DNA from: Nitrospirota bacterium
GTDB taxonomy: Bacteria > Nitrospirota > UBA9217
Direction: 5' to 3'
Length of the DNA: 64,000 bases
Assembly (NCBI GenBank): GCA_963754875.1
Contig: CAVWHO010000010.1
Span: 1-64,000 of the forward strand
The notes beneath the pieces were generated by a model. That model was given only the letters and a program-made list of their open reading frames with translations. It ran no database searches and had not been told where the DNA came from. The position numbers and the translations under genes are program-made. Positions 2,457 to 20,140 of this stretch are shown here, in pieces (position 1 is the stretch's first letter; the number at the start of each line of letters is the position of its first letter).

Positions 2457-2669
2457 CCCGTTACCGCGCCCTTTTTGTGGAAGGTACAGAGTAGATACTC
2501 GCATAGACGGCGTAAAGTTGAAATTATTCTATAATCCTCTTTTCCTTGAGGGAATTGGTCGAGGGCGGGTTACCTGGTGAGTAGTGCGCAGTAACTTGTG
2601 TTGTGGCAGGTGGTTGCGCGGCTGGCTTGGGTGTTGTAAGACGCATGAGTTCGCCTCGGCGGCCACGAA

Positions 2670-3687
2670 CTGGACCGTTCAAGACCACTGCTTTTCAGTC
2701 CGACGTAGCGGCCACGATAAAGGGTCTTGCGTACCAGGAAAAGGAATCGTTGGTCATGCAGATGCTCGTTTCCCTGTTTCAGAACAGCAGGGTGGACATT
2801 CCCGGGGACGCGAAGCTCATTCTCGCGACGACGAAAGGCGAGATCGATTTTCTTGAAAAAAGCATTCTTGCCGGTTCGGGAGACCCCCGGGAAAGCACGG
2901 TGAGCAAACTGCTCGCAAAGGTCGTGGAACTGACGGGTGCCCGGGGCGGGGGCATGGTGGTCTCGGCGGCCTGTACTTCCTCTGCAGCTGCTGTAGCGCG
3001 CGCAGCAGCCCTGATCCGGAACGGGCAGGGGGACTGTGTGCTCGTCGTGGCCTGTGACAGCGTAACGGAATTCATTTTTGCGGGGTTCTCTTCGCTCATG
3101 GCGCTGGACAAGGCGCCGGCACGGCCCTTCGATAAAAGGAGGGCGGGTTTGAGCGTGGGCGAGGCAGCCGCATTCGCACTGGTCATGAGCGAGGAGCGGG
3201 CCCGGCGGGAACAGCGGACCATCCTCGGGGAGATAGCAGGCTGGGGTTTAAGCGACGACGCGAACCATATGACCGGGCCGTCGCGTGAGAGCGACGGCCT
3301 GATCCTGGCGATCACCAAGGCGCTCGCTTCTGCTGAAATCGGGTCCGAGGCTATCGGCGTCATTGGCGCCCACGGCACCGGAACCGTGTATAACGACGCA
3401 ATGGAAATGCGGGCGTTCCACGCCGTATTCAAGGAACCGGTCCCCGTCTATTCCGTCAAGGGAGGCATTGGACATACTATGGGCGCTGCGGGTCTTGTCG
3501 AAATGATCATCGCCCTGCGATCGCTTCGTGAGAAAATTGTTCCTCCCACCGTGAACATGATCGAGCCACTGATGATGAGGCAACCGGATGGGTGTCGAAC
3601 CATATGCGGCCTATCGAACGGGAGGGGATGGCGCTGGTGACAAATGCCGGTTTTAGCGGCGTGAACACTGCGCTTGTCCTTGCGTGA
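2670..3687 (+). CDS. Beta-ketoacyl-ACP synthase (FabF-like KS1), N-terminus missing, frameshift near 3568
   Basis: Catalytic SAACTSS, AHGTGT, GHTMGAAG; C-terminal TNAGFSGVNTALVLA* in shifted frame ending 3687. Confidence 0.88.
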
Positions 3688-3694
3688 GGCTTCG

Positions 3695-4369
3695 ATGACG
3701 ATTTCGGTCCTGGGCATAGGGTGGCTCACGAACAATGGTTATGGCTGCATCAGGAGCGGCCGACGCCGGGCATTTGAGATGGGGGAAGGCATCCATTCCC
3801 TTCTGAAGCGCGGGATTTTTTCCCATCCTTTTAAGAATTTCGGCCGGCTCGACGGCACGGCACGAATGACCGCCTATGCCGTGGCGCTGGCCCTGCAGGA
3901 CTCAGGAATTGAGTACTCACCAGGATTGAAGCTGGACATCGGGATCATCGGGACGAATACGGAAGGTTCGCTCAGGTCCGACATCGAGTACTTCAAGGAC
4001 TACGTTGAGAGCGGCCGGACGCTGTCGCGGGGAAATCTGTTTATTTATACGCTGCCGTCGAGCCCTGCGGGCGAGTCCGCGATCCACTTCGGATTGCAGG
4101 GCCCTCTTCTGTATGTTAGGGAGGAGAGAAATTCTCTTGCCCGGGTCCTGGACACAGCAGCGGACATGATCATGGCCCAAGATACGCCGATGATGCTTGT
4201 TGGCCGGGCGGAGGAAACCGAGGCCCTCTATTTTATCCTGGCTGCCGGTCCCGCTCACGCAGGTAACGGGGCGTGGAGCATCGCTGATGCAAGAACCATC
4301 GTCGAAACTAACCCCGATGTTGCGGGGACGGTACAGAAATTCGAGGAATTAGCCGCAAGAAAGGCATAA
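3695..4369 (+). CDS. Short KS-like partner (chain-length-factor-like, no catalytic Cys)
   Basis: FGRLD..RM, IGII, LFIYTLPSSPAGESAIHFGLQGP typical of KS N-terminal-like proteins. Confidence 0.75.
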   Translation: MTISVLGIGWLTNNGYGCIRSGRRRAFEMGEGIHSLLKRGIFSHPFKNFGRLDGTARMTAYAVALALQDSGIEYSPGLKLDIGIIGTNTEGSLRSDIEYFKDYVESGRTLSRGNLFIYTLPSSPAGESAIHFGLQGPLLYVREERNSLARVLDTAADMIMAQDTPMMLVGRAEETEALYFILAAGPAHAGNGAWSIADARTIVETNPDVAGTVQKFEELAARKA

Positions 4370-4370
4370 T

Positions 4371-5642
4371 GTGAAGATCAAGCTCATTTATCCCGAATGG
4401 CCGAAGCTCGAGCGCCAGACCGAATTCCATCTCCCTCCGCACGGACCGGTCTGCTTTGCCGCAACGATCCCCGATGACGTGGAGATTGACTTTATTGATG
4501 AGCACGTGCAGGCCGTCGATTTCGATTCGCGCGCAGATCTTGTCGCTATTTCCTGCATGCTCACGTGCCAGATACCGCGCGGGTGGGAGATCGCCGACCA
4601 ATTCCGCAAACAGGGGGTCCCCGTGATCTTCGGAGGCATTGGGACCATGCTCCATGCCCAGGAGACGATGCAGCATGCCGATGCAGTGTTCCTCGGCGAG
4701 ACTGAGGGACGGTTCGCGCAGGTGCTTGACGACCTGGAGAAAAACCAACTGAAAAAAGTGTACGATTACCAGTGGAAATTTCCCGACATCAAGCTCGTGG
4801 GGCCGGCCAGGCGGAGCATACTGAACCGCCCGCTCTATAACTACCGGGGCGTGCAGATGGTGGATCTGGTCCATGCTTCGCGGGGCTGCCGTTTCAACTG
4901 CTTCCCGTGCTGCACGCCGTTTCTCGGGGGCCGCGAATTCCGACCCCGGCCCATCGATGACGTGATCAATGAAGTAGCGAACATCGAAAACAACCGCCTC
5001 TTCTTCGTCGATAATTCCATGGCACAGAACGACCAGTGGGAGAAGGACCTGTTCAAAGCCCTGATCCCGCTCAAGAAGAAATGGGTCTGCCATCCCATCA
5101 AAGACGATGACGAGATCCTGGACCTGGCGGCCGAAGCCGGGTGCTGGTACGTGTACCAGGCGATCTTCGATACGTCCGACCATATCCGGAACCGGGTGAA
5201 ACGGCTGCAGGAACGGGGCATCGGCGTGGAAGGGACGATCATTCTCGGCACCGATGAGCAGGACGAGGACTATGTCAAGCGGCTCGTCGACTTTCTGCTC
5301 GAGATCAAGCTCGATCTCGCTGAATTCACGATCCTGACGCCCTTCCCGCATACGCCCATTCGCGAGACCTTTCTGAAGGAAGGAAGGATCGTGTCGAACG
5401 ACTGGCGGCACTACACCGGCGGCGAGGTGGTTTATCAACCGGCGAAGATGACGCCCGAAAAGCTGCAGGACCTGTACTACTACGCGTGGGACACGTTCTA
5501 CAGCGACAGCAGCCAGAACCTCAAGATGGCCAAGCTCTTCCTCAAAGTCATCGAGAAAGAGAAAGCAGACGGAACGTACCAGGGCGCCAATCTCAGACGC
5601 CGAAAGTGGCAAAAGGAAGAAACCGCGGAGAAGGTGAGATGA
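4371..5642 (+). CDS. B12-binding radical SAM protein 1
   Basis: N-terminal cobalamin-binding domain (VIFGG, DAVFLGETE) + SRGCRFNCFPC motif. Confidence 0.9.
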   Translation: MKIKLIYPEWPKLERQTEFHLPPHGPVCFAATIPDDVEIDFIDEHVQAVDFDSRADLVAISCMLTCQIPRGWEIADQFRKQGVPVIFGGIGTMLHAQETMQHADAVFLGETEGRFAQVLDDLEKNQLKKVYDYQWKFPDIKLVGPARRSILNRPLYNYRGVQMVDLVHASRGCRFNCFPCCTPFLGGREFRPRPIDDVINEVANIENNRLFFVDNSMAQNDQWEKDLFKALIPLKKKWVCHPIKDDDEILDLAAEAGCWYVYQAIFDTSDHIRNRVKRLQERGIGVEGTIILGTDEQDEDYVKRLVDFLLEIKLDLAEFTILTPFPHTPIRETFLKEGRIVSNDWRHYTGGEVVYQPAKMTPEKLQDLYYYAWDTFYSDSSQNLKMAKLFLKVIEKEKADGTYQGANLRRRKWQKEETAEKVR

Positions 5643-7009
5643 AGATACTGCTCATCTCGGCAAACGTGACCCTGTCACCGTACCCCATTTATCCACTCGG
5701 CGTGAGCATGATTGCCGGGGCGCTGCACAAGGCCGGCCACGAAGTGCAGCAGCTGGACTTCCTTCAGCAGAACACTTCGCTCGCAGCGATCGCAGGAGAG
5801 GTCCGGAAATTCAATCCTGATCTTGTCGGCATTTCGGTGCGGAACATCGACAACGTGAACCTGATGAACGAGCAGTATTACATCCAGAACGTCAAGAATA
5901 TCGTAAACACGGTCAGGGAAGAATCAAGTGTAAAGGTGATCCTGGGCGGCGCGGGCTTTTCCTTGATCCCCGATCTTATCCTCAAGGAGACGGGAGCCGA
6001 TTACGGGATCATCGGCGAAGGCGAGGTCCTTGTTGTCCAATTCGCAAACAACGCGGCAAAAGGCATCTACCCGACCGAGCGTCTCATCGCCTCGGCACCG
6101 CGGCTTTCCGGCCAGGAAATAAACTCGGCGCTTTACGACGAAGGGCTGCTTGAGTTCTATCTCCACAGCGGTAATATCGCTTCGATCCAGACGAAACGGG
6201 GATGCACCCATAAATGTGTGTACTGCAGCTATCCGATACTGGAAGGCGCACACCTTCGCAGGAGGGAACCGCGGGCCGTCGTGGACGACATCGAGCTCCT
6301 GCGCGACAAGTTCAAGACGAAATATATTTTCTTCGTCGATTCCGTGTTCAATGATGATGAGGGCGCATACCTGGAGGTCATCGACGAAATGCTGCGCAGA
6401 AACGTGTCCCTTCCCTGGACCGGGTTCTTCAAACCCGGCGGCTTGACCGACGAGGTCGTCGAGCGTATGAAAAAGACGGGATTTGTCGCCGCAGAGGTGG
6501 GCGCAGACGCGGCCTGCGATACAACGCTCACGAGAATGGGCAAGAGTTTTACCTTCAGCGATATCGTCCTGTGCAACGATCTTTTCGCGCGCCACGGCAT
6601 CTCAACGTCCCACTTTTTTATGTTCGGCGGACCGGGCGAGACGCAGGAAACGGTGCAGGAGGGGATCAGGAACATCCTGGGGCTGCAGAAGTGCGTGGCC
6701 TTCATTTTCATGGGTATTCGGATCCTGCCCGATACGCCGCTTGCACGGCTCGCAATCAAGGAAAACATGATCGCACCTGACGACGGCCTGCTCCATCCCG
6801 TATACTACCTTTCGCCGGCAGTCGACAAAAAATGGCTGGAAGAAACACTGACAACGGCATTTGCAGAGGTACGCCACTGCGTATTCCCGCCTGATGCCAT
6901 GGACAACAGCCTTCAGATACTGCACAAGCTTGGGTACACGGGCCCCATGTGGGACCTGCTTCTGCCCGGGAAAAAACATCGAGAGAGGACGCGGCATGCT
7001 GCACGCTGA
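5639..7009 (+). CDS. B12-binding radical SAM protein 2 (lipid-biosynthesis/ladderane-cluster type)
   Basis: MKILLISAN..PYPIYPLG, GISVRNIDN, QTKRGCTHKCVYC; ATGA overlap with upstream gene. Confidence 0.9.
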   Translation: MKILLISANVTLSPYPIYPLGVSMIAGALHKAGHEVQQLDFLQQNTSLAAIAGEVRKFNPDLVGISVRNIDNVNLMNEQYYIQNVKNIVNTVREESSVKVILGGAGFSLIPDLILKETGADYGIIGEGEVLVVQFANNAAKGIYPTERLIASAPRLSGQEINSALYDEGLLEFYLHSGNIASIQTKRGCTHKCVYCSYPILEGAHLRRREPRAVVDDIELLRDKFKTKYIFFVDSVFNDDEGAYLEVIDEMLRRNVSLPWTGFFKPGGLTDEVVERMKKTGFVAAEVGADAACDTTLTRMGKSFTFSDIVLCNDLFARHGISTSHFFMFGGPGETQETVQEGIRNILGLQKCVAFIFMGIRILPDTPLARLAIKENMIAPDDGLLHPVYYLSPAVDKKWLEETLTTAFAEVRHCVFPPDAMDNSLQILHKLGYTGPMWDLLLPGKKHRERTRHAAR

Positions 7010-8195
7010 CACCTGTCAACAGGAAGGGATATGGGTTGCAATCCCTGTTTTCAATAACCGTGCCACAGTTGCGGATGTCGCTCGCCAGTGCCGTTCCCTG
7101 GTGAAGAACGTCGTCGTCGTTGACGACGGCAGTACGGATGCCGACTTGTCCGCGCTCCTGTCCGGCCTGGATGTCGTCCTCCTGACGCATGCTACGAACC
7201 TCGGCAAGGGCAGGGCGATCCTTACGGCGTCGCGTTACGTGGAGCAGCAGGGTGGCTCATATATGATCACGATCGACGCGGACGGCCAGCACTATCCGGG
7301 GGACCTACAAAAAATTATTTCGCTGATCCGCGAAGAGGAGCCGGGCATCATTATCGGATCGCGGAATTTTTCGGTCGAGCACGTCCCCTTGTCGAGCCGT
7401 TTCGGAAGGTCCTTTGCAAACTTCTGGCTCCGCGTCGAAACCGGCAGGGCAATCGACGATTGCCAGAGCGGATTCCGCGCCTATCCGGTCCGTTATCTGA
7501 ATCAACTCACGTTCAAGGGGTCTCGGTATGATTTTGAGGCCGAGGTGCTGGCCAAGACAGCATGGGCAGGGCTCGCGCTCAAAACGGTCCCGGTCGATGT
7601 CAAGTATCCCCGGCCCGAAGAGCGCCTGTCGAGCTTCAAGCCGGTCCTGGACAACCTGCGCCTTACGGCGATTCATTCCATGCTTGTCGGCCGGCGCCTG
7701 CTGCCGCTGCCGCACAAAAAACTGGTACCGGACCCGAACGCATTCAATCTTGCGATCCTGCGCCATCCGGGAAAGGCCTTGCGCATGCTGCTCCGGGAGC
7801 AGGCAACGCCGGAAGGCCTGGCGATGTCCGCGGCCATCGGCATGTTCCTTGCCGTTCTCCCGCTTTTGTTCGTACATACCCTGGTGATCCTCTATGTATC
7901 GCTGCGGCTGAACCTGAACAAGGTCGTGACCCTCAATATCCAGCACCTTGCCATGCCGCCTTTTATTCCGGCGCTCTGCATCGAGGTCGGCTATTACCTG
8001 CGGCACGGCACGTGGCTCACCGACCTGTCGTTCAGAACGGTCTTCGAACAGTTTTCATCGCGACTGTACGAATGGTTTCTCGGCTCGCTCATCATCGCCC
8101 CTCTGGCTGCCGTGATCATCGGCGCTGTCGTGTTCAGCGCCGCAGCTGTATTCAAACGGATATGGTTCGCCAATGTCTCCAATGAAGGATGTTGA
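6996..8195 (+). CDS. Glycosyltransferase family 2 fused to DUF2062 membrane domain
   Basis: IPVFNN, VVDDGSTD, GKGRA, IDADGQH, DCQSGFRAYP; hydrophobic C-terminus TPEGLAMSAAIG... Confidence 0.88.
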   Translation: MLHADTCQQEGIWVAIPVFNNRATVADVARQCRSLVKNVVVVDDGSTDADLSALLSGLDVVLLTHATNLGKGRAILTASRYVEQQGGSYMITIDADGQHYPGDLQKIISLIREEEPGIIIGSRNFSVEHVPLSSRFGRSFANFWLRVETGRAIDDCQSGFRAYPVRYLNQLTFKGSRYDFEAEVLAKTAWAGLALKTVPVDVKYPRPEERLSSFKPVLDNLRLTAIHSMLVGRRLLPLPHKKLVPDPNAFNLAILRHPGKALRMLLREQATPEGLAMSAAIGMFLAVLPLLFVHTLVILYVSLRLNLNKVVTLNIQHLAMPPFIPALCIEVGYYLRHGTWLTDLSFRTVFEQFSSRLYEWFLGSLIIAPLAAVIIGAVVFSAAAVFKRIWFANVSNEGC

Positions 8196-9075
8196 ACGCA
8201 AGAGGGGGAACCGCCTCGGCTTCTGGTTCTTTCAGGCCACGATAAGGGCCTTCGGGCTCCGCGGTGCCTACGGGCTGCTCTTTTTCGTCAGTCTCCATTA
8301 CCTGGTCTTTGACCGGGCCGCCGTGGCCTCCAGCATGGCATACGTTCGCAGGCGGTTCCCGGACCATTCGGCTGCCCAAAAGATTTTCGACGTGTACCTG
8401 CTTTTCGTGAGCCAGGGGAAGAGCCTGATTGACCGCTACTATGCGGCCTCAGGGCCGGGGGACATCGACGTCGAGATCCGGGGATACGAAAAGATAAAAG
8501 AGCTGCTCGCCCGCGGAGACAAAGGGTTCATCCTGCTGACCGCCCATGTCGGCAACTGGCAGGTGGCCATGACGTCGCTGCGCAAATTCGGAAGAATGGT
8601 TTACCTCATGATGCGGCGGGAAGACAATGCCGCAGTCAAAGAGGCTCTGAATATCGACAGCGAAGAGGAAACCATAAAAATATTGTATACCGATGACACT
8701 CTGGGGGGGGTGGTGGAGGCTTTGAAAGCAATCAATCGGGGCCACATCGTCTCGATTATGGGGGACCGGACGTACGAATACAGCAGCGCAGGAGCATCGT
8801 TCCTTGGAGGCGGCGTCCGCTTCCCTTACGGGGCCTTCAGCCTCGCGGCAGCGGCGCAGTGCCCCGTGGTTGTGCTTCTGTCCGCAAAGGTGGGCCTGAA
8901 AAAATACATAACCGACGTGTCGCATGTCATCAAACCGTTGTCCGGCGCGCGCGGGCAAAAAGAGGCCGAGATGAGTGCGGCGGTCCAGGCGTTTGCCGGT
9001 GTGCTGGAGGAGTATGTAGCACACTATCCCTATCAGTGGTTTGTGTTTCGCGATGTGTGGGCGTCGAATATTTAG
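8182..9075 (+). CDS. LpxL/HtrB-like (lysophospholipid) acyltransferase
   Basis: LTAHVGNWQ, IMGDR, FPYGAF, YPYQWF motifs. Confidence 0.85.
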   Translation: MKDVERKRGNRLGFWFFQATIRAFGLRGAYGLLFFVSLHYLVFDRAAVASSMAYVRRRFPDHSAAQKIFDVYLLFVSQGKSLIDRYYAASGPGDIDVEIRGYEKIKELLARGDKGFILLTAHVGNWQVAMTSLRKFGRMVYLMMRREDNAAVKEALNIDSEEETIKILYTDDTLGGVVEALKAINRGHIVSIMGDRTYEYSSAGASFLGGGVRFPYGAFSLAAAAQCPVVVLLSAKVGLKKYITDVSHVIKPLSGARGQKEAEMSAAVQAFAGVLEEYVAHYPYQWFVFRDVWASNI

Positions 9076-9089
9076 AAACAAGAGACAGT

Positions 9090-9178
9090 TGTAACCACAG
9101 ATGAACACGGTAAAAAACGAAATGCAACAAGATCAGATCCAAACGATCTGTGTATATCCGTGTTCATCTGTGGTTACA
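9090..9178. repeat. Intergenic palindromic element with 21-bp perfect inverted arms
   Basis: TGTAACCACAGATGAACACGG (9090-9110) / CCGTGTTCATCTGTGGTTACA (9158-9178). Confidence 0.85.
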
Positions 9179-9214
9179 TGCTTTGTAAAATGATTTCGTG
9201 ATAAGGAGAGCATT

Positions 9215-9496
9215 ATGGAGAGAGAGCAGGAGCTGCAAAAGATACGGAAAGACCTCAAGGAAATGATCGTCCGGGACCTTTCGCTGGACGATATCAAACC
9301 CGAGGACATCAAGGACGACGAGGTCCTTTTCGGCGAGGGGCTCGGTCTCGACTCGCTCGATGCCGTTGAGATCGTCGTCCTGCTGCAGCGCAACTTCGGC
9401 CTCGAAGTAAAGAACATGGACCAGGGAAAAGAGATTTTCTATTCCATTAATACCATCGCAAACTACGTCTACGAGAACACCAGGGAAAAAGCGTAA
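9215..9496 (+). CDS. Acyl carrier protein 1
   Basis: LFGEGLGLDSLDAVEIV phosphopantetheine motif; strong RBS AAGGAG. Confidence 0.92.
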   Translation: MEREQELQKIRKDLKEMIVRDLSLDDIKPEDIKDDEVLFGEGLGLDSLDAVEIVVLLQRNFGLEVKNMDQGKEIFYSINTIANYVYENTREKA

Positions 9497-9515
9497 GGAA
9501 GGCACATAGAAAAGC

Positions 9516-10463
9516 ATGAGACTTCTGTCTATTCTTATGACATTGCTGCTCACCGCAGCCTGCGGCGCGTCGGTTCCCCGCCACGCCGTGCCATCCCCTG
9601 CGTCGGCGCCGCTATTTACCTTCATTTTCGATGACGGAAACGACACCGACTATCTCGTGGCCAAGGACATCTTTGCGGAACAGGGGGCAGTCGCCTGCTC
9701 CGCAATCACGACGGACTGGATCAATACGAAGGACCATCTGTCCACTGCCCAGATCCGTGCATTGAGAGACGCGGGCTGGGAGATCATGAGCCATACTGTT
9801 TCGCATCCCGATCTTCCGTCACTGTCGGCCTCCCACATTGACGACGAACTTTCCCGCTCCAAGTCCGCGCTGGAAAACCTCGGAGTAACGGTCAATAATC
9901 TCGTCTATCCCTATAATAAAAACAATGAACAAGTCAGGCAGATCGCCCGGAAATACTACCGTTCCGCAAGGGGCGGCACCAACGCGGCGAATGCCCCGGA
10001 TGAAGACCCGTATTTCTTAAAATCCTATGCCAATAAACACGATGTGCGCAGGATGAAGCATTTCATCGACCGCGCATACGTTGACAAGTCCTGGGTCATT
10101 TTCTACCATCACCAGGTAGACATAAAAGTCGATCTTAGCGGCAGGAGGGGGACATTCATTCCCGACGAGAAACTGCTGTTCTCTCCATCAGGAGCAACGG
10201 GCAGATACGAACCGCCGATGTGGTTCCTGTACTTCGGTTCTCTCTATTTTGTGCCCCTCTCGGGGACGCCGCAGGCAGGGGACACGGTTACCGGCCAAAC
10301 AAGCGGAGCCACAGCGAGCATCGATCACGTCATATACGACGAGCGGGCAGCGATCAGTGAAATGCTCCGCTATGTCCGAACAACCTATCCGGACATGCGG
10401 ATCGTCACGATCGACGAGGGCTTGGATATATTGGGCATTCCGAAACATAACCCTCATGAATGA
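9516..10463 (+). CDS. Polysaccharide deacetylase (NodB-like) lipoprotein
   Basis: Lipobox-like LTAAC; FIFDDG, HTVSHPDL, YPYN motifs. Confidence 0.8.
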   Translation: MRLLSILMTLLLTAACGASVPRHAVPSPASAPLFTFIFDDGNDTDYLVAKDIFAEQGAVACSAITTDWINTKDHLSTAQIRALRDAGWEIMSHTVSHPDLPSLSASHIDDELSRSKSALENLGVTVNNLVYPYNKNNEQVRQIARKYYRSARGGTNAANAPDEDPYFLKSYANKHDVRRMKHFIDRAYVDKSWVIFYHHQVDIKVDLSGRRGTFIPDEKLLFSPSGATGRYEPPMWFLYFGSLYFVPLSGTPQAGDTVTGQTSGATASIDHVIYDERAAISEMLRYVRTTYPDMRIVTIDEGLDILGIPKHNPHE

Positions 10464-11634: not shown

Positions 11635-12701
11635 ATATTCTCGGAATTGGGACCGTTTGCGCAGCCGGAGTTGGTATCAACTCATTCGAGAATGCCTTGC
11701 GAAGGGGTTGGCAGAAACCGGTTGAAGTGGAGGCGGCAAGGTTTCCGGTGACCAGGTATCCGGTATACCAGGTCGACCTCGGCGCTGTGCCTGACAAAAC
11801 GCTCCTCAAGAAGATCAGGCGTTCCGATAAGCTCAGCAAAATGAGCGTTCTTGCGGCAGCGGAGGCCATGAGGGACAGTGGTATCGATATTGTTCAGGCA
11901 AAGAACCTGGGGGTCATCGTCGCTACCGGGTTCGGCGCCCATGTGACGACGTTCGGTTTTCTGGACGACATCCTCAACTACGGCGACGCCGCGGTATCGC
12001 CGACGACATTTTCCAACTCGGTCCATAATGCCGCAGCTTCCTACGTTTCTTCCACTCTTGATATCAAGGGGCCGACTCTGACGATCACGCAGTTTCGTTT
12101 CTCCTTTCAGGCAGCGCTCCAGCTGGCACAAACCTGGCTCCATCAACAACGCTGCGATTACGTACTCGTCGGCGCCGTTGACCAGTATGGCGATGTGCTG
12201 GGGTATGTTTCCGACGAGAAACTTGCCTTTGCTAAGGACGGCAAGATTAAACCTTTCATCTTCAAGCCGACCTGCCATGTACCCGGCGAGGGAGCTGCCT
12301 TCTATCTGGTGAGTATGAAGCAGACAAGGCAAGCCTACTGCTCCATCCCATCGATCGCAATGAACGAAACTATGGATTCCGGTACTTCAGCGGATATCAA
12401 CATCATTGACGCCGATGGCATGCTGAGAGATGAATCTTCTTATCTCGCGTCGTTGCCGCAGGACACACCGACAACTGCCTATTCGCCGATCTTCGGCAGC
12501 ATGATGACCGGGAGCGCCTTCAACGTTGCTGCAGGCGCGCTTATGCTCAAAAACCAGGAGCACTTTGCTGCACCTGTGCTGGACAATCCGAACGGACTTC
12601 GGCTTGTTACTGAAACCCGGCAAGCCCGTGTCGAATCAATCCGCTGCATTGGCTGCAACTGCTACGCGGAGAAGTCCGTGCTTTATTTGTCGAAGCAGTG
12701 A
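11631..12701 (+). CDS. KS-like chain-length-factor partner 2
   Basis: SPTTFSNSVHNAAAS, PGEGAAF; Cys region reads TITQFRFS (no catalytic Cys). Confidence 0.8.
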   Translation: MNILGIGTVCAAGVGINSFENALRRGWQKPVEVEAARFPVTRYPVYQVDLGAVPDKTLLKKIRRSDKLSKMSVLAAAEAMRDSGIDIVQAKNLGVIVATGFGAHVTTFGFLDDILNYGDAAVSPTTFSNSVHNAAASYVSSTLDIKGPTLTITQFRFSFQAALQLAQTWLHQQRCDYVLVGAVDQYGDVLGYVSDEKLAFAKDGKIKPFIFKPTCHVPGEGAAFYLVSMKQTRQAYCSIPSIAMNETMDSGTSADINIIDADGMLRDESSYLASLPQDTPTTAYSPIFGSMMTGSAFNVAAGALMLKNQEHFAAPVLDNPNGLRLVTETRQARVESIRCIGCNCYAEKSVLYLSKQ

Positions 12702-12808
12702 GCTCGATCTTGTTTCCCGTTGAATTATCGGGAACCATCAGATATAATTCACGTGCTTTGAATCAATATTCTTAAGTTTGATCACCGGGAGTAGAGGCTG
12801 AAATAATC

Positions 12809-13051
12809 ATGACCGTCCAGGACATAGAACAAAAACTGATCGAAGGAATTTCTTCGATCACGAACAAGGACAAGTCGGCCATCGCCGCAGATATACCGTT
12901 CCACGAACTCGGCATCGACTCGCTTGGGTTTGTCGAAATCCTTGTGTTCATTGAAAAGTCGTTCAAGCTCCAGTTGATTGCGTCGGACCTGACCAAAAAG
13001 GACTTCGAGACCATCCATACCCTGTCGTCGTATATCAGCGGAAAACTGTAA
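12809..13051 (+). CDS. Acyl carrier protein 2
   Basis: ELGIDSLGFVEIL motif, 80 aa acidic. Confidence 0.9.
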   Translation: MTVQDIEQKLIEGISSITNKDKSAIAADIPFHELGIDSLGFVEILVFIEKSFKLQLIASDLTKKDFETIHTLSSYISGKL

Positions 13052-13063
13052 CTCCGGATTTTT

Positions 13064-14383
13064 ATGCTCCTATCCAAGCGCAAGCGCTACCTATCGGGTT
13101 CGGACTGGGTGATCAACACTCTCGATTACATGATGAAGTCCGTGACCTGCTCCGGCAATATGTCGCAGCTGGTGCTCACGCTCGAAGGGACTGTTGACGA
13201 AAAAGAAGTCAGGTCTCGCTTGAACAGCTTTGTCAAACGGTTTCCCGTGGTTCACGGGTCCGTGTCGCGGGACTTTAAGCTCACTCCCTACTGGAAAATT
13301 CCTGCCAGGTCCGAAGAGGATGTATCGATCTTCGTCACCCCTATTGAATCGCTTGAAAGGCAGGGGACCTTGCTCCCGCTCTTGGAAAAGAGCGCCAATA
13401 CGAATTTCCGGGACAATTGCGAGCATGTTGCTTTCCATCTCTTCATCGGCAACGAACAGAGCGCTCTTGCCATGATGTTCGACCACCGGCTTTTCGACGC
13501 CCGAGGCGCTGAAATGTTCCTGGACCTCTTTCAGCGGAGTTTACAGGCGGAAGCCCCTTCCGGTGATGTCACGTTTATTTCGTCACAGGAACTCACGAAG
13601 TGGAAGAAGAAGTTCCTGGCGGGCCGCAGCGTAAACCGCAGGATCATCGCGTTAACACGATCTGCTGCTCCGGCATCGTTGCCGCTCCCAACGGAAAAGG
13701 GAAAAGGCTATAAGTACCAGTTAGTGACCTTTAGCGCGGATGAAACCACAGCTCTTTATGACGCCGCATATCGAGACGCCGGCTATCTCATGGAGTCACC
13801 CTATTTTCTGTCGCTCATCACGCAGGCTGTGCACGAAGTTTTTCGGAACAGACTTTCGAACGGATCAAGCTATGTTATTCCCGTTACCGTGGATTTAAGA
13901 CAGGGCAAAGACCCGCTGCAGGAAACGTTCTTTAATCATTTGTCCTATCTTTTTTACCAGGTGCCGGTGGAGTCGGTCCATGACCTGAAGGGTCTGATCA
14001 ATTCTTTCAAACAGCAGATGTACGATCAGGTCAAATCCGGCTTTCCAAAGGACCTGGCAGAGGCAAGCCTGCTCACGAGGATAGCGCCGCTGCCGCTCCT
14101 GGGCAAGCTTTTACATATCCCGCTCAAAGGGAGAATGGCGACCTTTGCCTTCTCTCATTTGGGAAAAAGCGCATACCAATCGTCTGAGTTTCTGGGCAGG
14201 GGGATCGAGAATATTTTTCATATGCCCCGCGTGCCTGTACCGCCCGGGCTTGGGTTTTTCAGCACGAGCTATAACGGACGACTCAATCTTATTATTTCAT
14301 ACCTTGACGGTGTGCTTACGGAAGAAGATGCCGATGGACTCTCGGCAGCGATACAGAAGAAGTTCGGAAGGGTGCAAAAGTGA
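13064..14383 (+). CDS. Condensation-domain/CoA-dependent acyltransferase-like protein
   Basis: HxxxD motif DHRLFDARG, IPVTVDLR, C-terminal YNGRLNLIISY; CAT-like superfamily layout. Confidence 0.7.
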   Translation: MLLSKRKRYLSGSDWVINTLDYMMKSVTCSGNMSQLVLTLEGTVDEKEVRSRLNSFVKRFPVVHGSVSRDFKLTPYWKIPARSEEDVSIFVTPIESLERQGTLLPLLEKSANTNFRDNCEHVAFHLFIGNEQSALAMMFDHRLFDARGAEMFLDLFQRSLQAEAPSGDVTFISSQELTKWKKKFLAGRSVNRRIIALTRSAAPASLPLPTEKGKGYKYQLVTFSADETTALYDAAYRDAGYLMESPYFLSLITQAVHEVFRNRLSNGSSYVIPVTVDLRQGKDPLQETFFNHLSYLFYQVPVESVHDLKGLINSFKQQMYDQVKSGFPKDLAEASLLTRIAPLPLLGKLLHIPLKGRMATFAFSHLGKSAYQSSEFLGRGIENIFHMPRVPVPPGLGFFSTSYNGRLNLIISYLDGVLTEEDADGLSAAIQKKFGRVQK

Positions 14384-15588
14384 AGCAGTCCGGCTGTGAT
14401 GTTCTTGTGGTCGGCGGGGGCGTTGCAGGAACCTTGGCCGCAGTAGCTGCTGCCCGGGACAATGTCCGAACCATACTCGTTGACAAGGGGCCATTCCTCG
14501 GCGGTTTAGGGTACGCAGGGATGTTTCAATCCATCTGCGGCCTCTATCTGAACGGCGAGTCCTTCCCTGACGAGACGCTGAACGCAGGGATCGTTCGGGA
14601 GGTCGTGGACCGATTACACAAAATATCGCCTGAAAAAAAAGTGCACAAGATGGGGAAGGTCTTTGTTCTTCCTTATTCGCGGGAAGCACTGCAATCTACG
14701 TTGGTCGATCTCTGTGCTGCAGAACAGAATCTGGATGTCCTTTACAGTTCTTCGGCCACATCAGTCACCATGCAGAACGGAAAGATCGAATGTCTTATCT
14801 TCAGTAGATCGGAGGAGGGGCAAAGCGTAAGACCTGCCGTAGTCATCGACTGCTCGGGCGATGGTGTTGTTGCTGCTCTGGCCGGGGGGAAATGGGATCT
14901 TGCATCGACGGAGGAACGACAGCTTGCAGGCTTCACTCTGCACGTGAAAGGATTGAAGGACCCCGATGAATTGCTGGCCATTAAGGTCCCCTATTGCCTG
15001 GCAGAGGCTGTGAAAGAGGGGAAATTTGCTTCTCCTCTGCAATTTACTACGTTTAGCCCCGGAGATGCCCCCGACGAGGGCTACTGCAAGATCAGTGTCG
15101 CTGATCATGAAGGAAACGATAAGGAAGAAAAGGCCAGAAAAGATGCTGAGGAAGTTCATCATTATCTCTCGCAGGTACTTCCTGCTTTTAAGGATTCCTC
15201 TATTATAGAAACATCGCCATACGTCCTGGAACGGGAAGGGCGGCGGGTAAGAGGCGATTACACGCTTACCGAAGACGACGTGCTCTCGGGCAGGAAATTT
15301 GAAGACGGGATCGTTAAAAACTCCTGGCCTGTAGAGCTTTGGGACAGTAAGAAGGGAACGATCTATAAATATCTTCAGCCCGGAGAATACTACGAGATCC
15401 CTTTCCGGTGTCTGATCGTCAAAGGCGTTTCGAACCTGCTGACTGCCGGACGCTGTATATCAGCGTCCCACGAGGCCCTTGGCTCGACGCGGGTTATGGG
15501 CGCGTGCATGGCGCTCGGTGAACAAGCAGGCAGGGCTGCAGCCTATCGGGTGAAGCACGGCAAGTATCCGGAGAAGGTGACGGATTAG
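14380..15588 (+). CDS. FAD-dependent oxidoreductase
   Basis: DVLVVGGGVAG, IDCSGDG, REGRR, YYEIPFRCL, NLLTAGRCIS, RVMGACMALGEQAG. Confidence 0.85.
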   Translation: MKQSGCDVLVVGGGVAGTLAAVAAARDNVRTILVDKGPFLGGLGYAGMFQSICGLYLNGESFPDETLNAGIVREVVDRLHKISPEKKVHKMGKVFVLPYSREALQSTLVDLCAAEQNLDVLYSSSATSVTMQNGKIECLIFSRSEEGQSVRPAVVIDCSGDGVVAALAGGKWDLASTEERQLAGFTLHVKGLKDPDELLAIKVPYCLAEAVKEGKFASPLQFTTFSPGDAPDEGYCKISVADHEGNDKEEKARKDAEEVHHYLSQVLPAFKDSSIIETSPYVLEREGRRVRGDYTLTEDDVLSGRKFEDGIVKNSWPVELWDSKKGTIYKYLQPGEYYEIPFRCLIVKGVSNLLTAGRCISASHEALGSTRVMGACMALGEQAGRAAAYRVKHGKYPEKVTD

Positions 15589-15639
15589 TGCGCTTCAATA
15601 TTTGTTCATTCGTAAGAAGTCGGATAATCTTCTTTAGAT

Positions 15640-15771
15640 GTCATTCCCCGCTCCTTATTAAAAATAGGATGCGGTGCGCTGCCGGCCTGCCTCGACCTGT
15701 CAGGGCTCGTCCGGAATCGCCTCTTTCAGTACGTTGTAAAAGCACTACGACTCCCGACAAGAGGGAATGAC
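15640..15771. repeat. GTCATTCCC...GGGAATGAC palindromic element (RPE/dRS3-like)
   Basis: 9-bp terminal inverted repeats bounding 132 bp inside the cluster. Confidence 0.5.
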
Positions 15772-15858
15772 GACTTATAGTTGCGGGGGCAAAAGGTTTT
15801 CTCCGTGCCTCAGTGTCTCTGTGGTTAAAAGTAGATTTCATCCTATCAGGGGGTTTTA

Positions 15859-17295
15859 GTGCGTATATTACTTGTAAAACCGAATCCTCAATTGCTTGTT
15901 GCCAGACGACTTCAGGAAGGCTTTCTGCACCTCGAACCGCTGGAACTCGAAATGGTCGCTGCCGGAGTGCCGCTTGAGGACGAAGTCGTCATCCAGGACC
16001 TGAGCTTTGAAAAAGATCCGGTGCTCGGTTTTGAAAACAAAGTCCGGCAATTCGATCCGCAGATCGTCGGGTTCACCGGGTACAGCAGCCAGTCCGGTCT
16101 CGTCAAACGACTTGCTGATCTCACGAAGCAGATCAATTCAAAGATCGTGACCGTGGTCGGAGGGACCCATGCGACGATCATACCTGGGGACTATGCGTTG
16201 AACGGCAAGGGCATCGATGTCATCGTTCGCGGAGAAGGGGGTACTGCGTTCGCAGAGATCGTCAGGCGCTTTAAGAACAACGAGCCGCTTGCGTTCGGCG
16301 ATGCCGTGCTGTCGCCCCGTGCAGCGGATTTCGCGGAAAAGGCTGCAGGCCCACCGCCGGAATTCCCGCCCGTGGAGCAGATCCCGCGGGCGCGGCGGGA
16401 ACTCGTGGACCGCTCACGTTACTTCTGCGTCTGGACTTCGAGTACGGAAAAGAAACTCGATACGATCTTCCCCCGTACGGCAAGCATGCGGACCTCGACG
16501 GGCTGCGCCTATTCATGCTCTTTCTGCGTGGTGCATCACCTGATGCGAGGCAAATATCTTCAGCGTCATCCGGAGGACGTGGTCGACGAGATCGCAAAGG
16601 TGCCGGAGGAGCATATCTATTTTGTCGACGACGAGACCTTCCTGAACAAGGACCGCCTGACGAGGATCGCGAACCTGCTTCTCGAAAAGGGCATCAAAAA
16701 GAAGTATATCAGCTGGGCGCGAGCTGATACGATCGTTAAATATCCCGAACTGTTCAGGCTCTGGAAACAGGTCGGCTTGAGCGTGGTGTACGTCGGCCTC
16801 GAAGCCATGGTGGGGTCCCGGCTCGACAAGTATAAAAAACGGACGAGCGTGGACACGAACCGCAAGGCAATAGAACTTCTGAAGGAGATCGGCATCACGC
16901 TGCACGCAAGCTTCATGGTGGACCCCGACTTCTCGGTCCAGGATTTCAAGGACCTCGAAAAGGAGATCATGAAGGTCTGTCCCGCAGAAGTGACCTTTAC
17001 GGTCTTCTCGCCGTCGCCGGGGACAGACCTCTGGAAGCAGCATAAGGACGACTATATCGTCGATCCCTATCTCTATTATGACTGCATGCACACCATCCTG
17101 CCTACCAAGCTCGACATGAACACATTTTATGCGCACTTTGCCAAACTGTCGAGGGTCGCACTCCAGGCAAATCCGCTCCGGGTCAATAAGGTGAAGGTGC
17201 CGTTCAAAGAAATGATAAAGATCATCTATCTCGGCACGCGGTATATTTCTTCGATGCGTAACATCTATAAGGATTACCTGCCGAAAAAATCATGA
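15859..17295 (+). CDS. B12-binding radical SAM protein 3
   Basis: EPLELE, VVGGTHAT, VRGEG, TSTGCAYSCSFC. Confidence 0.9.
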   Translation: MRILLVKPNPQLLVARRLQEGFLHLEPLELEMVAAGVPLEDEVVIQDLSFEKDPVLGFENKVRQFDPQIVGFTGYSSQSGLVKRLADLTKQINSKIVTVVGGTHATIIPGDYALNGKGIDVIVRGEGGTAFAEIVRRFKNNEPLAFGDAVLSPRAADFAEKAAGPPPEFPPVEQIPRARRELVDRSRYFCVWTSSTEKKLDTIFPRTASMRTSTGCAYSCSFCVVHHLMRGKYLQRHPEDVVDEIAKVPEEHIYFVDDETFLNKDRLTRIANLLLEKGIKKKYISWARADTIVKYPELFRLWKQVGLSVVYVGLEAMVGSRLDKYKKRTSVDTNRKAIELLKEIGITLHASFMVDPDFSVQDFKDLEKEIMKVCPAEVTFTVFSPSPGTDLWKQHKDDYIVDPYLYYDCMHTILPTKLDMNTFYAHFAKLSRVALQANPLRVNKVKVPFKEMIKIIYLGTRYISSMRNIYKDYLPKKS

Positions 17296-18719
17296 ACCTC
17301 TTCGACATCATAAAGCGGGAAACCGAAGGACTCGACAAGAACATCGCGGTGATCGAGGGAGACACCTCGCTGACCTACAGCCAGCTGTTTTCCTCCGCTC
17401 AACAGGTAGCCGAGACCCTGAGAACGTACGGCGTCGGCCGTTTGCACCGGGTCGGGCTTTTATGCGACGACAGCATCGACTACATCATCGCGAGCCTCGC
17501 GATTTTGTCCTTATCAGCAGCCATTGTGCCGGTTTCTCCTGAGCAGACAGCGGAAGAAGTTGAAACCGTCATCGAACGGATCGATGTCGACTTCCTCGTT
17601 GCCGAACCGCGGCTCCGGCAAGGGGGCTACAGCGATCCGCTCCCGTCAAAGGGATTCATTGAAAAAGAGTTCATGATCGTGAAAAGGACGGTAAAAGAAC
17701 GTCCGAAGGCTGAGTATTTCAGGACCAATCCAGCCTTCATCCGGTTCAGCTCAGGCACAACCGGAACGAGCAAAGGCGTGGTGCTGTCCCATGAAGCGAT
17801 CCTGGAGCGGACCGATGCAGCGGACATGGGCCTCCGGATAACCTCAAAGGACAGGGTGCTCTGGGTCCTGTCCATGAGCTTTCATTTCGTGGTCACCATC
17901 CTGCTGTTCCTGCGGCGCGGCGCGACGATCGTGCTCTGCGGCCATCGTTTCCCCGAGACATTGATCGAGGGCATCACGAGGCACAAGGGGACCTTTATTT
18001 ATGCCTCGCCCTTTCATTACAGCATTCTGGCGCGTACCGATGCGTTGACCAGTAATGCGCTCAAGGACATTCGTTTAGCAGTTTCAACTGCAATGAAGCT
18101 CCCGGAAGACATAGCCGGTGATTTTTTTACGAAATTCGGCTTCGAGCTGACCGAAGCGTACGGCATCATCGAAGTCGGACTTCCCTTCGTCCGTCTCTCC
18201 GGCGGCAGGGACAAGCGCGGGTCCGTGGGCAAACCGCTGCCGGATTATCAGATCCAGCTCGACCGGAAAGACGCAGGCGGCGTGGGATCGATCCGCATCA
18301 AAGGCAAAGGCATGCTCGATGCGTACTATTCTCCCTGGCAGGGGAGGGATGACATCCTCGTGGACGGCTGGTTCAAAACAGGCGACCTCGGCGAGATCGA
18401 TGCGGACGGTTTTCTGTTTATCGTGGGCAGGGAAAAAGACGTCATCAACTTTGTCGGAATGAAGGTTTTTGCCCAGGAGGTCGAGTCTGTTCTCAACCAG
18501 CACCCGCAGGTGAAAGAATCTCTGGTCTACGGGGCCCCTCATGCCGTATACGGGCAGCTGCCGATGGCGAAGATCGTGCTCCGGGAGGGATCAGGCAGCC
18601 TGGAAGTAAATGACCTGCGCCGGTATTGCTATGAGCACCTCGCCCAATACAAAGTGCCGAAGGATTTCGAATTTGTGGACCAGCTTGCAAAAACGGCGAG
18701 CGGAAAGATCAAACGATGA
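17292..18719 (+). CDS. AMP-dependent acyl-CoA/ACP ligase
   Basis: FSSGTTGTSKG, EAYGIIEVG, GWFKTGDLG, KTASGKIKR. Confidence 0.9.
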   Translation: MNLFDIIKRETEGLDKNIAVIEGDTSLTYSQLFSSAQQVAETLRTYGVGRLHRVGLLCDDSIDYIIASLAILSLSAAIVPVSPEQTAEEVETVIERIDVDFLVAEPRLRQGGYSDPLPSKGFIEKEFMIVKRTVKERPKAEYFRTNPAFIRFSSGTTGTSKGVVLSHEAILERTDAADMGLRITSKDRVLWVLSMSFHFVVTILLFLRRGATIVLCGHRFPETLIEGITRHKGTFIYASPFHYSILARTDALTSNALKDIRLAVSTAMKLPEDIAGDFFTKFGFELTEAYGIIEVGLPFVRLSGGRDKRGSVGKPLPDYQIQLDRKDAGGVGSIRIKGKGMLDAYYSPWQGRDDILVDGWFKTGDLGEIDADGFLFIVGREKDVINFVGMKVFAQEVESVLNQHPQVKESLVYGAPHAVYGQLPMAKIVLREGSGSLEVNDLRRYCYEHLAQYKVPKDFEFVDQLAKTASGKIKR

Positions 18720-20140
18720 AGATATTGCTCGTCAATCCCTTTGGTTCCAACTGGGTAGAAGGCATGGAAGACCACACCGAGACTGCCATCCGTATGGCGC
18801 CGATCGGCATCCTGTCCATAGCCGCTTTTCTCCTGGAAAAGGGACACGACGTGGAAGTTCATGATTGCCGGGGCCCGGTCACGCGCGGCGGCGCCGCGGA
18901 GGTGATATCCCGGGTGCAGACCTTCAAACCCGACATGGTGGGTTTCACGGCCGTGACCTCAAGCTTTCTGAATTGCTACGGCCTTGCAGTGGAAATCAGG
19001 AAGGTTTCGCCGCAGATCCTTATCGTGGTCGGCGGTGTCCACGTATCGGCCCTGCGCAAGAAGATCCTCCTCTCCTATCCTGGCATTGACTTTTTGGTGA
19101 CCGGCGAAGGCGAGAAAGCCATGGCTGATCTTGCCGCTGGCGCTAAACCCGAAACAATCCAGGGTCTGGTGTACCGCGAGGGGAATGAGATCAAGGATAA
19201 CGGGATCAGGACCGATCTCTGCGAACTGGACAGGCTGCCGTTTCCCGCGTATGGAATACTTGAAGGATTTCCCAAAAAATTCGAGGCCGCGTTGTTCAAT
19301 TATCCGAAAGCTCCGTCAGCCACGATCATATCGAGCCGCGGCTGTCCTTACCAGTGTTCCTATTGCGACCGCTCGGTCTACCGCCGGAGCTTTCGCTACA
19401 ATTCGGCGGAATATCTCTACGAACATATGGCATTCCTGAAAAGGGAATTTGGCATCCGCCACATTTTCTTTTACGACGACCTGTTTACCTTCAACCGGGA
19501 GAGGGTCGAGAAGTTTTGCGGTCTCTTGCGGGAAAAGCCGCTCCACATGACCTTCAACTGCGCCGTACGCGTGGGGCATGCAGACGACGAACTGCTCAAG
19601 ATGCTGAAGGCCTCGGGCTGCTGGATGGTGAGCCTTGGCATCGAGTCGGGCGCGCCGGAGATTCTTGCCCGGCACAAGACGAAAGTGGACTTTAATGAAA
19701 TGAAAACCACAGTAAAGCGGATCCAGAAGAACGGCCTTCGGGCCAAGGGCCTGTTCATGATGGGATTGCCCGGCGAGACTGAAAAAACCGTCAAGATGAC
19801 GACCGATTTCATCACCAATCTCGAACTGGACGACATGAATATGACTAAGTTCACGCCATTCCCGGGCTCGCCGATCTACCAGACGATCAACGATGAAGGC
19901 ACGTTTGTCGAAAAATGGGAATTGATGAACTGTCTGAATTTCGTCTTCGTGCCGAACGGGATCGAATCCAAAGAACGCCTTGACCAGTTGTATAAACAGT
20001 TCATTAAACAGTTCTATACCGGAAAAAACTGGGTCCGTAAATTCGGGCCGCTGATGTTCAAATCCCCGAACAGTACCTACCGGATCCTCAGGAACCTGCC
20101 GACATTCCTCAAGATCAAAAGCGACTTTGAACCGAAATAG
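18716..20140 (+). CDS. B12-binding radical SAM protein 4 (class B methyltransferase-like)
   Basis: PIGILSIAA, VGGVHVS, GEGE, SSRGCPYQCSYC, GIESG, PFPGSPIY. Confidence 0.9.
   Translation: MKILLVNPFGSNWVEGMEDHTETAIRMAPIGILSIAAFLLEKGHDVEVHDCRGPVTRGGAAEVISRVQTFKPDMVGFTAVTSSFLNCYGLAVEIRKVSPQILIVVGGVHVSALRKKILLSYPGIDFLVTGEGEKAMADLAAGAKPETIQGLVYREGNEIKDNGIRTDLCELDRLPFPAYGILEGFPKKFEAALFNYPKAPSATIISSRGCPYQCSYCDRSVYRRSFRYNSAEYLYEHMAFLKREFGIRHIFFYDDLFTFNRERVEKFCGLLREKPLHMTFNCAVRVGHADDELLKMLKASGCWMVSLGIESGAPEILARHKTKVDFNEMKTTVKRIQKNGLRAKGLFMMGLPGETEKTVKMTTDFITNLELDDMNMTKFTPFPGSPIYQTINDEGTFVEKWELMNCLNFVFVPNGIESKERLDQLYKQFIKQFYTGKNWVRKFGPLMFKSPNSTYRILRNLPTFLKIKSDFEPK

What the first reader, a model, noticed from the sequence alone, without database searches (positions are those of the whole stretch)
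2670..20140. Type II FAS/PKS-like lipid cluster with four B12-dependent radical SAM enzymes
Seen: co-directional, often overlapping genes for 2 KS, 2 KS-like partners, 2 ACPs, 4 B12-rSAMs (intact CxxxCxxC), GT2-DUF2062, LpxL-type acyltransferase, deacetylase, condensation-like protein, FAD oxidoreductase and AMP-ligase. Known: KS/ACP/B12-rSAM/GT/acyltransferase sets resemble the anammox ladderane-candidate clusters and their homologues in anaerobic Deltaproteobacteria, and share the anchoring logic of aryl polyene clusters; B12-rSAMs methylate unactivated carbons or form rings. Inference: an uncharacterised multiply methylated or cyclised envelope lipid. Strongest candidate for a new system in this window.
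Basis: partly seen in the sequence, partly recalled or inferred. Interest (0 to 1): 0.85.

Follow-up and report, generated by a model that had tools for sequence, protein, structure and literature searches.

The report
Radical-SAM-tailored aryl-polyene-type glycolipid operon
These 16 genes are the rear half of a 28-gene operon, shared by several lineages of oxygen-avoiding bacteria, that carries most of the known aryl-polyene lipid machinery plus four vitamin-B12-type radical enzymes, and it likely makes a chemically decorated outer-membrane glycolipid that nobody has yet isolated, probably not a ladderane.

Summary
Observation confirmed, but the finding is half an operon. Window 1-2677 is foreign DNA (IS66 transposase, GntR/LacI-like regulator) joined into KS1; the other 12 genes end contig C8. 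All 28 genes lie in the same order in 2 of 8 relatives fetched, nearly so in 4 more. 12 of 18 E. coli aryl-polyene (ape) proteins have counterparts, so it most likely works like the aryl-polyene-lipid pathway: polyene chains on carriers, assembled on a glycolipid and exported. Additions: four B12-type radical SAMs, a SPASM-rSAM/dehydratase fusion, and a third-carrier module (ACP2, condensation-fold acyltransferase, flavoprotein, ligase). rSAM2 is TIGR04072, closest to TsrM, pointing to C-methylation. The anammox homologue is the kuste3335-3352-type cluster, found in only 2 of 5 anammox genomes tested; the window's ketosynthases do not group with the conserved ladderane-candidate Cluster I. The cluster type has been in print since 2009; no product was found in my searches. 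This scan found it before on other DNA (e1-2559478, e1-4327992, e1-5223806). New variant of a known kind; chemistry open.

The parts
1..2677 (.). Not part of the cluster: foreign DNA (IS66-type transposase pieces, GntR/LacI-like regulator) joined to KS1, probably a chimeric assembly join
   Evidence: (family names read from the translation, not from a library scan)
2678..3687 (+). KS1, ketosynthase (Cys-His-His); its 5' part lies on contig C8; frameshift near 3569
3695..4369 (+). CLF1, short (224 aa) inactive KS-like partner; homologous to the short gene after the KS in the anammox kuste3335-3352-type cluster
4371..5642 (+). rSAM1, B12-type radical SAM, no named family; 26-33% to anammox cluster I, II and III enzymes but a separate clade
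5639..7009 (+). rSAM2, TIGR04072; closest solved structure TsrM; keeps the TsrM Arg69 position, lacks Glu273
6996..8195 (+). GT2-DUF2062 glycosyltransferase (counterpart of the ApeJ N-half)
8173..9075 (+). LpxL-type acyltransferase (counterpart of the ApeJ C-half)
9215..9496 (+). ACP1, ApeE-like carrier
9516..10463 (+). Polysaccharide-deacetylase-domain protein with a lipoprotein-like N-terminus; optional (20 of 39 loci)
10456..11634 (+). KS2, ApeO-like ketosynthase (Cys-His-His)
11631..12701 (+). CLF2, inactive KS-like chain-length-factor partner
12809..13051 (+). ACP2, third carrier with no close ape counterpart
13064..14383 (+). Stand-alone condensation-fold (HxxxD) acyltransferase
14380..15588 (+). 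PF12831 flavoprotein; geranylgeranyl-reductase/halogenase superfamily fold, no close solved relative
15859..17295 (+). rSAM3, B12-type radical SAM; best family HpnR (225 bits, cut-off 650)
17292..18719 (+). AMP-forming acyl ligase, distinct conserved family; no amino-acid-binding Asp after the A4 aromatic residue
   Evidence: meaning of the residue recalled
18716..20140 (+). rSAM4, B12-type radical SAM; best family HpnJ (175 bits, cut-off 578), best structure AprD4; the most often missing of the four

Best explanation
The window holds the rear 16 genes of a 28-gene aryl-polyene-lipid-type operon that likely builds polyene acyl chains on two carriers, likely C-methylates them with B12 radical-SAM enzymes, and likely assembles and exports them as an outer-membrane glycolipid. 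Shown: the gene set, its conserved order, intact catalytic motifs and ape counterparts. Inferred step 1: FabF (ApeR-like), KS2/CLF2 (ApeO/ApeC-like) and KS1/CLF1 with FabG and the ApeI-like plus ApeP-like dehydratases extend chains on ACP1 (ApeE-like) and ACP0 (ApeF-like); no enoyl reductase lies in the cluster, so conjugated polyenes result. Inferred step 2: the PaaK-type CoA ligase on C8 activates the starter, identity unknown. Inferred step 3: rSAM2 methylates an sp2 carbon of the head group or polyene, standing in for the missing ApeB; rSAM1, the SPASM-rSAM fused to the dehydratase and the phytoene-dehydrogenase-like enzyme tailor the carrier-bound chain further. Inferred step 4: the AMP ligase loads a small acid on ACP2, the flavoprotein reduces or oxidises it, optional rSAM3/rSAM4 modify it, and the condensation-fold enzyme transfers it to the sugar or lipid. 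Inferred step 5: PlsC, GT2 and the LpxL-type enzyme assemble the glycerophospho-sugar lipid, and MMPL, LolA and the DUF3261 lipoprotein export it.
For: 12 of 18 E. coli CFT073 Ape proteins hit cluster proteins (ApeR-FabF 43%, ApeQ 40%, ApeO-KS2 34%, ApeJ split over GT2 and LpxL, ApeD, E, F, I, K, L, M, P); ApeC weakly (E 0.03) and ApeN only via Pfam DUF3261. For the 7 Ape proteins with a genome hit at E<1e-5, the best hit lies in this cluster. FabF groups with ApeR (0.99 clade). The X. doucetiae product is a glycerol-phosphate-GalNAc lipid with two polyene chains from ApeE and ApeF, assembled by ApeD and ApeJ. rSAM2's best structure is TsrM (E 9e-30); Arg69, which primes methylcobalamin for sp2 methylation, is kept in 24 of 24 clade members; next families are BzaD and TsrM. 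An anammox orphan module puts rSAM2-like and rSAM3-like genes beside chorismate lyase, ACP, ligase and O-methyltransferase. ACP2-Cond-flavoprotein are adjacent in 46 of 52 loci with both neighbours. Cobalamin salvage and SAM-cycle genes are in the genome.
Against: No product is known for any member. ApeH, ApeB, ApeG and ApeA have no counterpart, and no aromatic ammonia-lyase or Rv2949c-type chorismate lyase was found in this 90%-complete genome, so an aryl head is unproven. rSAM2 lacks TsrM Glu273 in 24 of 24, so the TsrM mechanism does not transfer directly. rSAM4 is nearest to non-methylating HpnJ and AprD4. Two flavoproteins of reductase-like fold could saturate the chains. B12 binding is predicted only; rSAM1 barely passes the Pfam cut-off. 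D. psychrophila lipid analysis reported no such glycolipid, but used saponified extracts.
Confidence: 0.58

Rival explanations
1. Same glycolipid scaffold, but the chains end up largely saturated and multiply methyl-branched: the flavoproteins reduce the polyene and the B12 enzymes methylate sp3 carbons.
For: rSAM3 is nearest HpnR, a hopanoid C-3 methylase; the PF12831 protein's best fold match is digeranylgeranyl-phospholipid reductase (Z 22.0, rmsd 4.0, 295 aligned); a phytoene-dehydrogenase-like enzyme is conserved.
Against: All these similarities are far below family cut-offs; the fold match ties with FixC (Z 21.3) and halogenases (Z 20-21); KS/CLF pairs plus ApeI/ApeP dehydratases are the polyene signature.
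Confidence: 0.17
2. The radical enzymes cyclise carrier-bound polyenes into rings (cyclopropane, cyclobutane or ladderane-like).
For: Homologous cluster in 2 of 5 anammox genomes; rSAM1 is this genome's best match (29%) to the Cluster I rSAM; KS2's top PDB hit is the anammox KS 9s5h_B (203 vs 193 bits for B. subtilis FabF); rSAM4 is nearest ring-contracting HpnJ.
Against: 3 of 5 near-complete anammox genomes lack the homologous cluster while all 5 have Cluster I; KS1, KS2 and FabF do not group with amxFabF2; rSAM1 is a separate clade; no ladderanes in D. psychrophila; no hydrazine synthase here.
Confidence: 0.1
3. A flexirubin-like pigment ester or released small molecule, not a glycolipid: the condensation-fold enzyme joins the polyene to a second small unit made on ACP2.
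For: Saprospiraceae loci L108/L109 share the TE-KS1-CLF1-ACP-KS2-CLF2 order and the ACP2 module without B12 enzymes; flexirubin clusters also carry deacetylase, acyltransferase, LolA, glycosyltransferase and exporter.
Against: No dialkylresorcinol genes were seen among the cluster genes or recurring inserts; GT2, LpxL-type and PlsC genes are conserved (33 of 39 loci for GT2 and LpxL).
Confidence: 0.12
4. In this organism the cluster is dead, split by an insertion in KS1 and frameshifted.
For: The window shows IS66-containing DNA joined into KS1 and a frameshift near 3569.
Against: C8 ends with the missing KS1 5' part and overlaps the window; contigs in 4 of 4 runs laid continue at 2678 into C8-like letters, none into the window's 1-2677; other indels (rhomboid gene, C8 end) point to an error-prone assembly; the other 15 window genes are intact.
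Confidence: 0.03

Closest known systems
Aryl polyene lipid (APE/APEL) cluster of E. coli CFT073 and Xenorhabdus doucetiae (apeA-R)
   Same: Counterparts of ApeR, Q, P, O, M, L, K, J, I, F, E, D, weakly ApeC and ApeN: two carriers, initiating KS, KS/CLF, two acyltransferases, glycosyltransferase, MMPL/LolA/DUF3261 export.
   Different: No ApeA, B, G, H; ApeJ split in two genes; PaaK-type ligase instead of ApeH; extra KS1/CLF1 pair, five radical SAM enzymes, phytoene-dehydrogenase-like enzyme, deacetylase and the ACP2 module.
Anammox cluster kuste3335-3352 and the D. psychrophila/Geobacter/Pelobacter clusters (Rattray 2009, PMC2649909); NCBIfam TIGR04072
   Same: PaaK ligase - SPASM rSAM - TIGR04072 homologues (34-45%), KS with short partner, FabG, ACP, MMPL, PDH, GT2, LpxL, LolA, deacetylase in anammox loci L112-L115, whose order matches the published gene table.
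   Different: Different gene order; the anammox version has two SAM methyltransferases and lacks the condensation-fold enzyme (0 of 5 anammox genomes) and rSAM3/rSAM4 in the cluster.
Anammox Cluster I (kuste3603-3608; amxFabF2/amxFabFmut), the conserved ladderane candidate
   Same: Active plus inactive KS pair, ACP, PDH-like enzyme, B12-type rSAM of the same broad lineage as rSAM1 (29-30%).
   Different: Window KSs are not its orthologues; Cluster I has no glycosyl/acyltransferase or export genes. A closer Cluster I-like operon without rSAM lies elsewhere on this contig.
Flexirubin cluster of Chitinophaga/Flavobacterium (PMC3992019)
   Same: Several KS genes, CoA ligase, deacetylase, acyltransferase, LolA, glycosyltransferase, exporter.
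   Different: No tyrosine ammonia-lyase or DarAB seen; radical SAM enzymes added. Gene-by-gene comparison was not possible (supplement unreadable).
Clorobiocin pyrrole-carbonyl module (ligase, carrier, flavoenzyme, B12 methylase CloN6, acyltransferase); module recalled, CloN6 seen
   Same: Load-modify-methylate-transfer logic on a dedicated carrier, like ACP2-Cond-FAD-AMP-rSAM3/4.
   Different: The ligase is not an amino-acid adenylation domain, the flavoprotein is not an acyl-CoA dehydrogenase; an analogy, not membership.

Membership tests
TIGR04072 (rSAM_ladder_B12) | Score over the curated cut-off in a lipid cluster | tested here: met
   rSAM2 629 bits vs 360; rSAM1, 3, 4 score 51-115 and are not members
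APE/APEL cluster | Core KS (ApeO, ApeR), ACPs (ApeE, F), DH (ApeI, P), KR (ApeQ), transporter (ApeM) | tested here: met
   core list
APE/APEL cluster | Chain-length factor ApeC | tested here: inconclusive
   Two inactive KS partners present; ApeC hits CLF2 only at E 0.027
APE/APEL cluster | Lipid assembly and export (ApeD, ApeJ, ApeL, ApeN) | tested here: met
   ApeN only through Pfam DUF3261, 24.2 vs 22.3 bits
APE/APEL cluster | 4-hydroxybenzoate loading by ApeH and ring methylation by ApeB | tested here: not met
   No ApeH or ApeB hit; no PF01947 chorismate lyase or PF00221 lyase in the genome; UbiC and XanB2 types not searched
APE/APEL cluster | Aryl-polyene chromophore on a glycolipid | not testable with these tools
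   needs lipid chemistry
Anammox Cluster I (ladderane candidate) | Orthologues of amxFabF2/amxFabFmut | tested here: not met
   tree of 71 KS proteins
Anammox Cluster I (ladderane candidate) | Orthologue of the Cluster I B12 rSAM | tested here: inconclusive
   rSAM1 29-30% identical, same broad clade, deep nodes weak (0.73, 0.27)
Anammox Cluster I (ladderane candidate) | Host is an anammox organism | tested here: not met
   hydrazine synthase beta best 45 bits vs cut-off 560
TsrM-type non-radical methylase (rSAM2) | Arg under the cobalamin (Arg69) | tested here: met
   24 of 24
TsrM-type non-radical methylase (rSAM2) | Glu ligand to the unique iron (Glu273) | tested here: not met
   Val, Leu or Ile in 24 of 24
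HpnR, HpnJ, BchE | Score over curated cut-off | tested here: not met
   rSAM3 HpnR 225/650; rSAM4 HpnJ 175/578, BchE 158/481
Condensation-fold acyltransferases | C-domain fold with HxxxD motif | tested here: met
   His141 and Asp145 invariant in 7 of 7; Foldseek E 5e-18, TM 0.5-0.68 on a pLDDT-64 model
Cobalamin-dependent enzymes | Actual cobalamin binding | not testable with these tools
   domain match only

The most novel reading that the evidence does not exclude
Anaerobes run an aryl-polyene-lipid assembly line in which up to five radical SAM enzymes act on carrier-bound polyenes and form C-C bonds or rings, giving a new class of outer-membrane glycolipid and a tractable sister pathway for the radical chemistry proposed for ladderanes.
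Probability: 0.12. Interest if true: 0.85.

Novelty: new variant of a known kind. Interest (0 to 1): 0.45.

Why it matters
[quoted passage not shown] This operon family is widespread in Nitrospirota, Desulfobacterota, Omnitrophota, Verrucomicrobiota and Planctomycetota, so its product would be a new envelope lipid, a possible biomarker for anoxic settings, and new B12 chemistry. Reading the anammox kuste3335-3352 cluster as an optional aryl-polyene-type glycolipid pathway also helps strike it from the ladderane candidate list. The cluster type itself is already catalogued.

Tried and rejected
Pfam and NCBIfam gave nothing for the 439-aa protein; profile, atlas and fold searches placed it. The flavoprotein's reaction could not be fixed: only Rossmann-level PDB hits and tied fold matches. 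The AMP ligase's substrate could not be assigned: best PDB hits (MenE, oxalyl-, malonyl-, benzoate-CoA ligases) lie within 20 bits. No ammonia-lyase or PF01947 lyase in the genome (1 of 5 relatives has PF01947, off-cluster). The promoter/terminator scan was uninformative. No RNA holder listed. The PF12831 paper search returned nothing specific. The 2014 APE survey was not held and the flexirubin supplement was unreadable; both may bear on whether this branch was already mapped, as may the unseen supplements of the APEL preprint. Pontiella paper gave only a loose pigment remark. No complex prediction was run: KS/CLF pairs would pass by likeness. Rejected: 'new system', 'ladderane cluster', 'cluster starts at 2670'.


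Full report
Observation. All four radical SAM proteins carry a Pfam B12-binding domain and CxxxCxxC, are only 20-27% identical to each other and show dN/dS 0.05-0.07 against one relative. rSAM2 passes TIGR04072 (629 vs 360 bits); the other three pass no NCBIfam cut-off. KS1 and KS2 keep Cys-His-His; CLF1 is a 224-aa KS fragment and CLF2 lacks the catalytic Cys.

The window shows half the operon. Bases 1-2677 read as IS66 transposase pieces and a GntR/LacI-like regulator (names from my reading of the translation). Bases 2678-2999 match the first 324 bases of contig C8 at 96%, and C8 carries, in the same direction, FabG, a phytoene-dehydrogenase-like enzyme, FabF, ACP0, PlsC, a PaaK-type ligase, a SPASM radical SAM fused to an ApeP-like dehydratase, LolA, MMPL, a DUF3261 lipoprotein, an ApeI-like dehydratase, a thioesterase and the KS1 5' end. 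Contigs from 4 of 4 public runs laid (2 studies, related strains) break off at 2678 with letters like the C8 continuation; two of them lack 2 bases at the KS1 frameshift. The join and the frameshift are therefore probably assembly artefacts.

Conservation. Of 8 relatives fetched (chosen for long contigs from 20 loci), G031 and G026 have all 28 genes in this order, G004, G012, G029 and G018 nearly so, G019 lacks the ACP2-to-ligase block and G043 is rearranged; 5 of 8 have all four B12 enzymes. TIGR04072 passes its cut-off in 23 of 61 genomes searched; strong orthologues (570 bits or more) occur in 3 of 14 genus and 14 of 36 family members, so the operon is accessory. ACP2-Cond-flavoprotein are adjacent in 46 of 52 loci with both neighbours; with enough flank, rSAM2 is present in 32 of 39, rSAM1 in at least 24 of 39, rSAM3 in 25 of 40 and rSAM4 in 15 of 40. 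Two Saprospiraceae loci have the backbone and the ACP2 module without any B12 enzyme in the stretch held.

What it works like. 12 of 18 proteins of the E. coli CFT073 ape cluster hit cluster proteins, ApeC weakly and ApeN only through Pfam; ApeA, B, G and H do not. ACP0 is ApeF-like, ACP1 ApeE-like, ACP2 neither. The X. doucetiae product is a glycerol-phosphate-GalNAc lipid with an aryl polyene and a second conjugated chain, assembled by ApeD and ApeJ and exported by ApeM/L/N (10.1101/2020.12.19.423268, whole main text; PMC8253772 passages). That is the basis of the best explanation. The starter is open: no ammonia-lyase or PF01947 lyase was found.

The radical enzymes. rSAM2 is closest to TsrM (E 9e-30). 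TsrM's Arg69 is kept in 24 of 24 clade members, Glu273 in none (roles from PMC8992657 passages). With BzaD as next family and an anammox module pairing rSAM2- and rSAM3-like genes with chorismate lyase, ACP, ligase and O-methyltransferase, sp2 C-methylation is the most likely reaction, by inference. rSAM3 is nearest HpnR, rSAM4 nearest HpnJ and AprD4, rSAM1 has no near characterised relative. Cobalamin salvage genes and SAM synthetase/SAH hydrolase lie 19-32 kb downstream and CobS elsewhere.

Third-carrier module. The 439-aa protein has an invariant HxxxD and a condensation-domain fold. The flavoprotein model (pLDDT 94) matches geranylgeranyl reductases, FixC and halogenases about equally. The ligase is a conserved family of unknown substrate. 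A load-modify-transfer role is inferred.

Ladderanes. 12 of 301 Planctomycetota genomes passed the hydrazine synthase cut-off; I examined the 5 best assembled. All 5 have Cluster I, only 2 have a TIGR04072 cluster, and none has the condensation-fold gene. The two loci follow the published kuste3352-3335 order (PMC4790861 parts 1, 3 and passages) and carry LpxL, LolA, MMPL and GT2 homologues. In a 71-protein tree the window's KSs do not group with amxFabF2, FabF groups with ApeR; rSAM1 is a separate clade with weak deep support. Against this, KS2's top PDB hit is the anammox KS by a small margin. Rattray 2009 (parts 1-3 of 7) described such clusters in D. psychrophila, Geobacter and Pelobacter and found no ladderanes in D. 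psychrophila. Also read: the 2026 amxFabF preprint (parts 1-4 of 6), PMC10139942 (part 1), PMC13459092 (section 5 and passages), PMC3992019, PMC9902471 and PMC7356697 (passages). Searches found no product for this cluster type.

Verdict. Real, intact, larger than reported, and a radical-SAM-rich variant of the aryl-polyene-lipid family with a known marker enzyme. Earlier scan notes on other genomes reached the same reading after I had stated mine; they are not independent support. Interest 0.45: the type is known, the product and five radical reactions are not.

Noticed in passing
G000:C10:296314-302925 (L132), outside the window: Separate operon: SAM methyltransferase, FabG, inactive KS (48% to anammox amxFabFmut type), FabZ (53%), KS (56% to amxFabF2 type, sister in the tree, support 0.97), ACP, frameshifted PDH-like gene, then membrane sensor kinases. 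A Cluster I-like operon in a non-anammox host, without a radical SAM gene beside it.
   Followed up: partly
L118:1569-10473 (anammox handle G096): Orphan module: chorismate lyase, ACP, DUF362, AMP ligase, O-methyltransferase, rSAM3-like, TIGR04072 member.
   Followed up: partly
window 39003-52684: Cobalamin uptake/salvage block (ABC transporter, CobQ, TonB receptor, CbiB) followed by SAM synthetase and SAH hydrolase.
   Followed up: partly
window 20380-21065: Rhomboid protease gene split over three frames, another sign of indel errors.
   Followed up: no
window 1-2677: Foreign higher-GC stretch with IS66 pieces and a GntR/LacI-like regulator, found nowhere else in the genome.
   Followed up: partly
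L027, L035, L050, L051, L090 and anammox L112, L114: Recurring insert: alpha/beta-hydrolase fused to a SPASM radical SAM, often with a GT1 glycosyltransferase; a HemN-like radical SAM in 6 other loci; PagL-like barrel near 8 loci.
   Followed up: no
L022:2655-13085 (contig C8): Type I-E CRISPR array and cas genes, next to a group II intron-type reverse transcriptase (read from translations).
   Followed up: no
window 57205-62000: NiFe hydrogenase subunits and maturation genes, read from translations.
   Followed up: no
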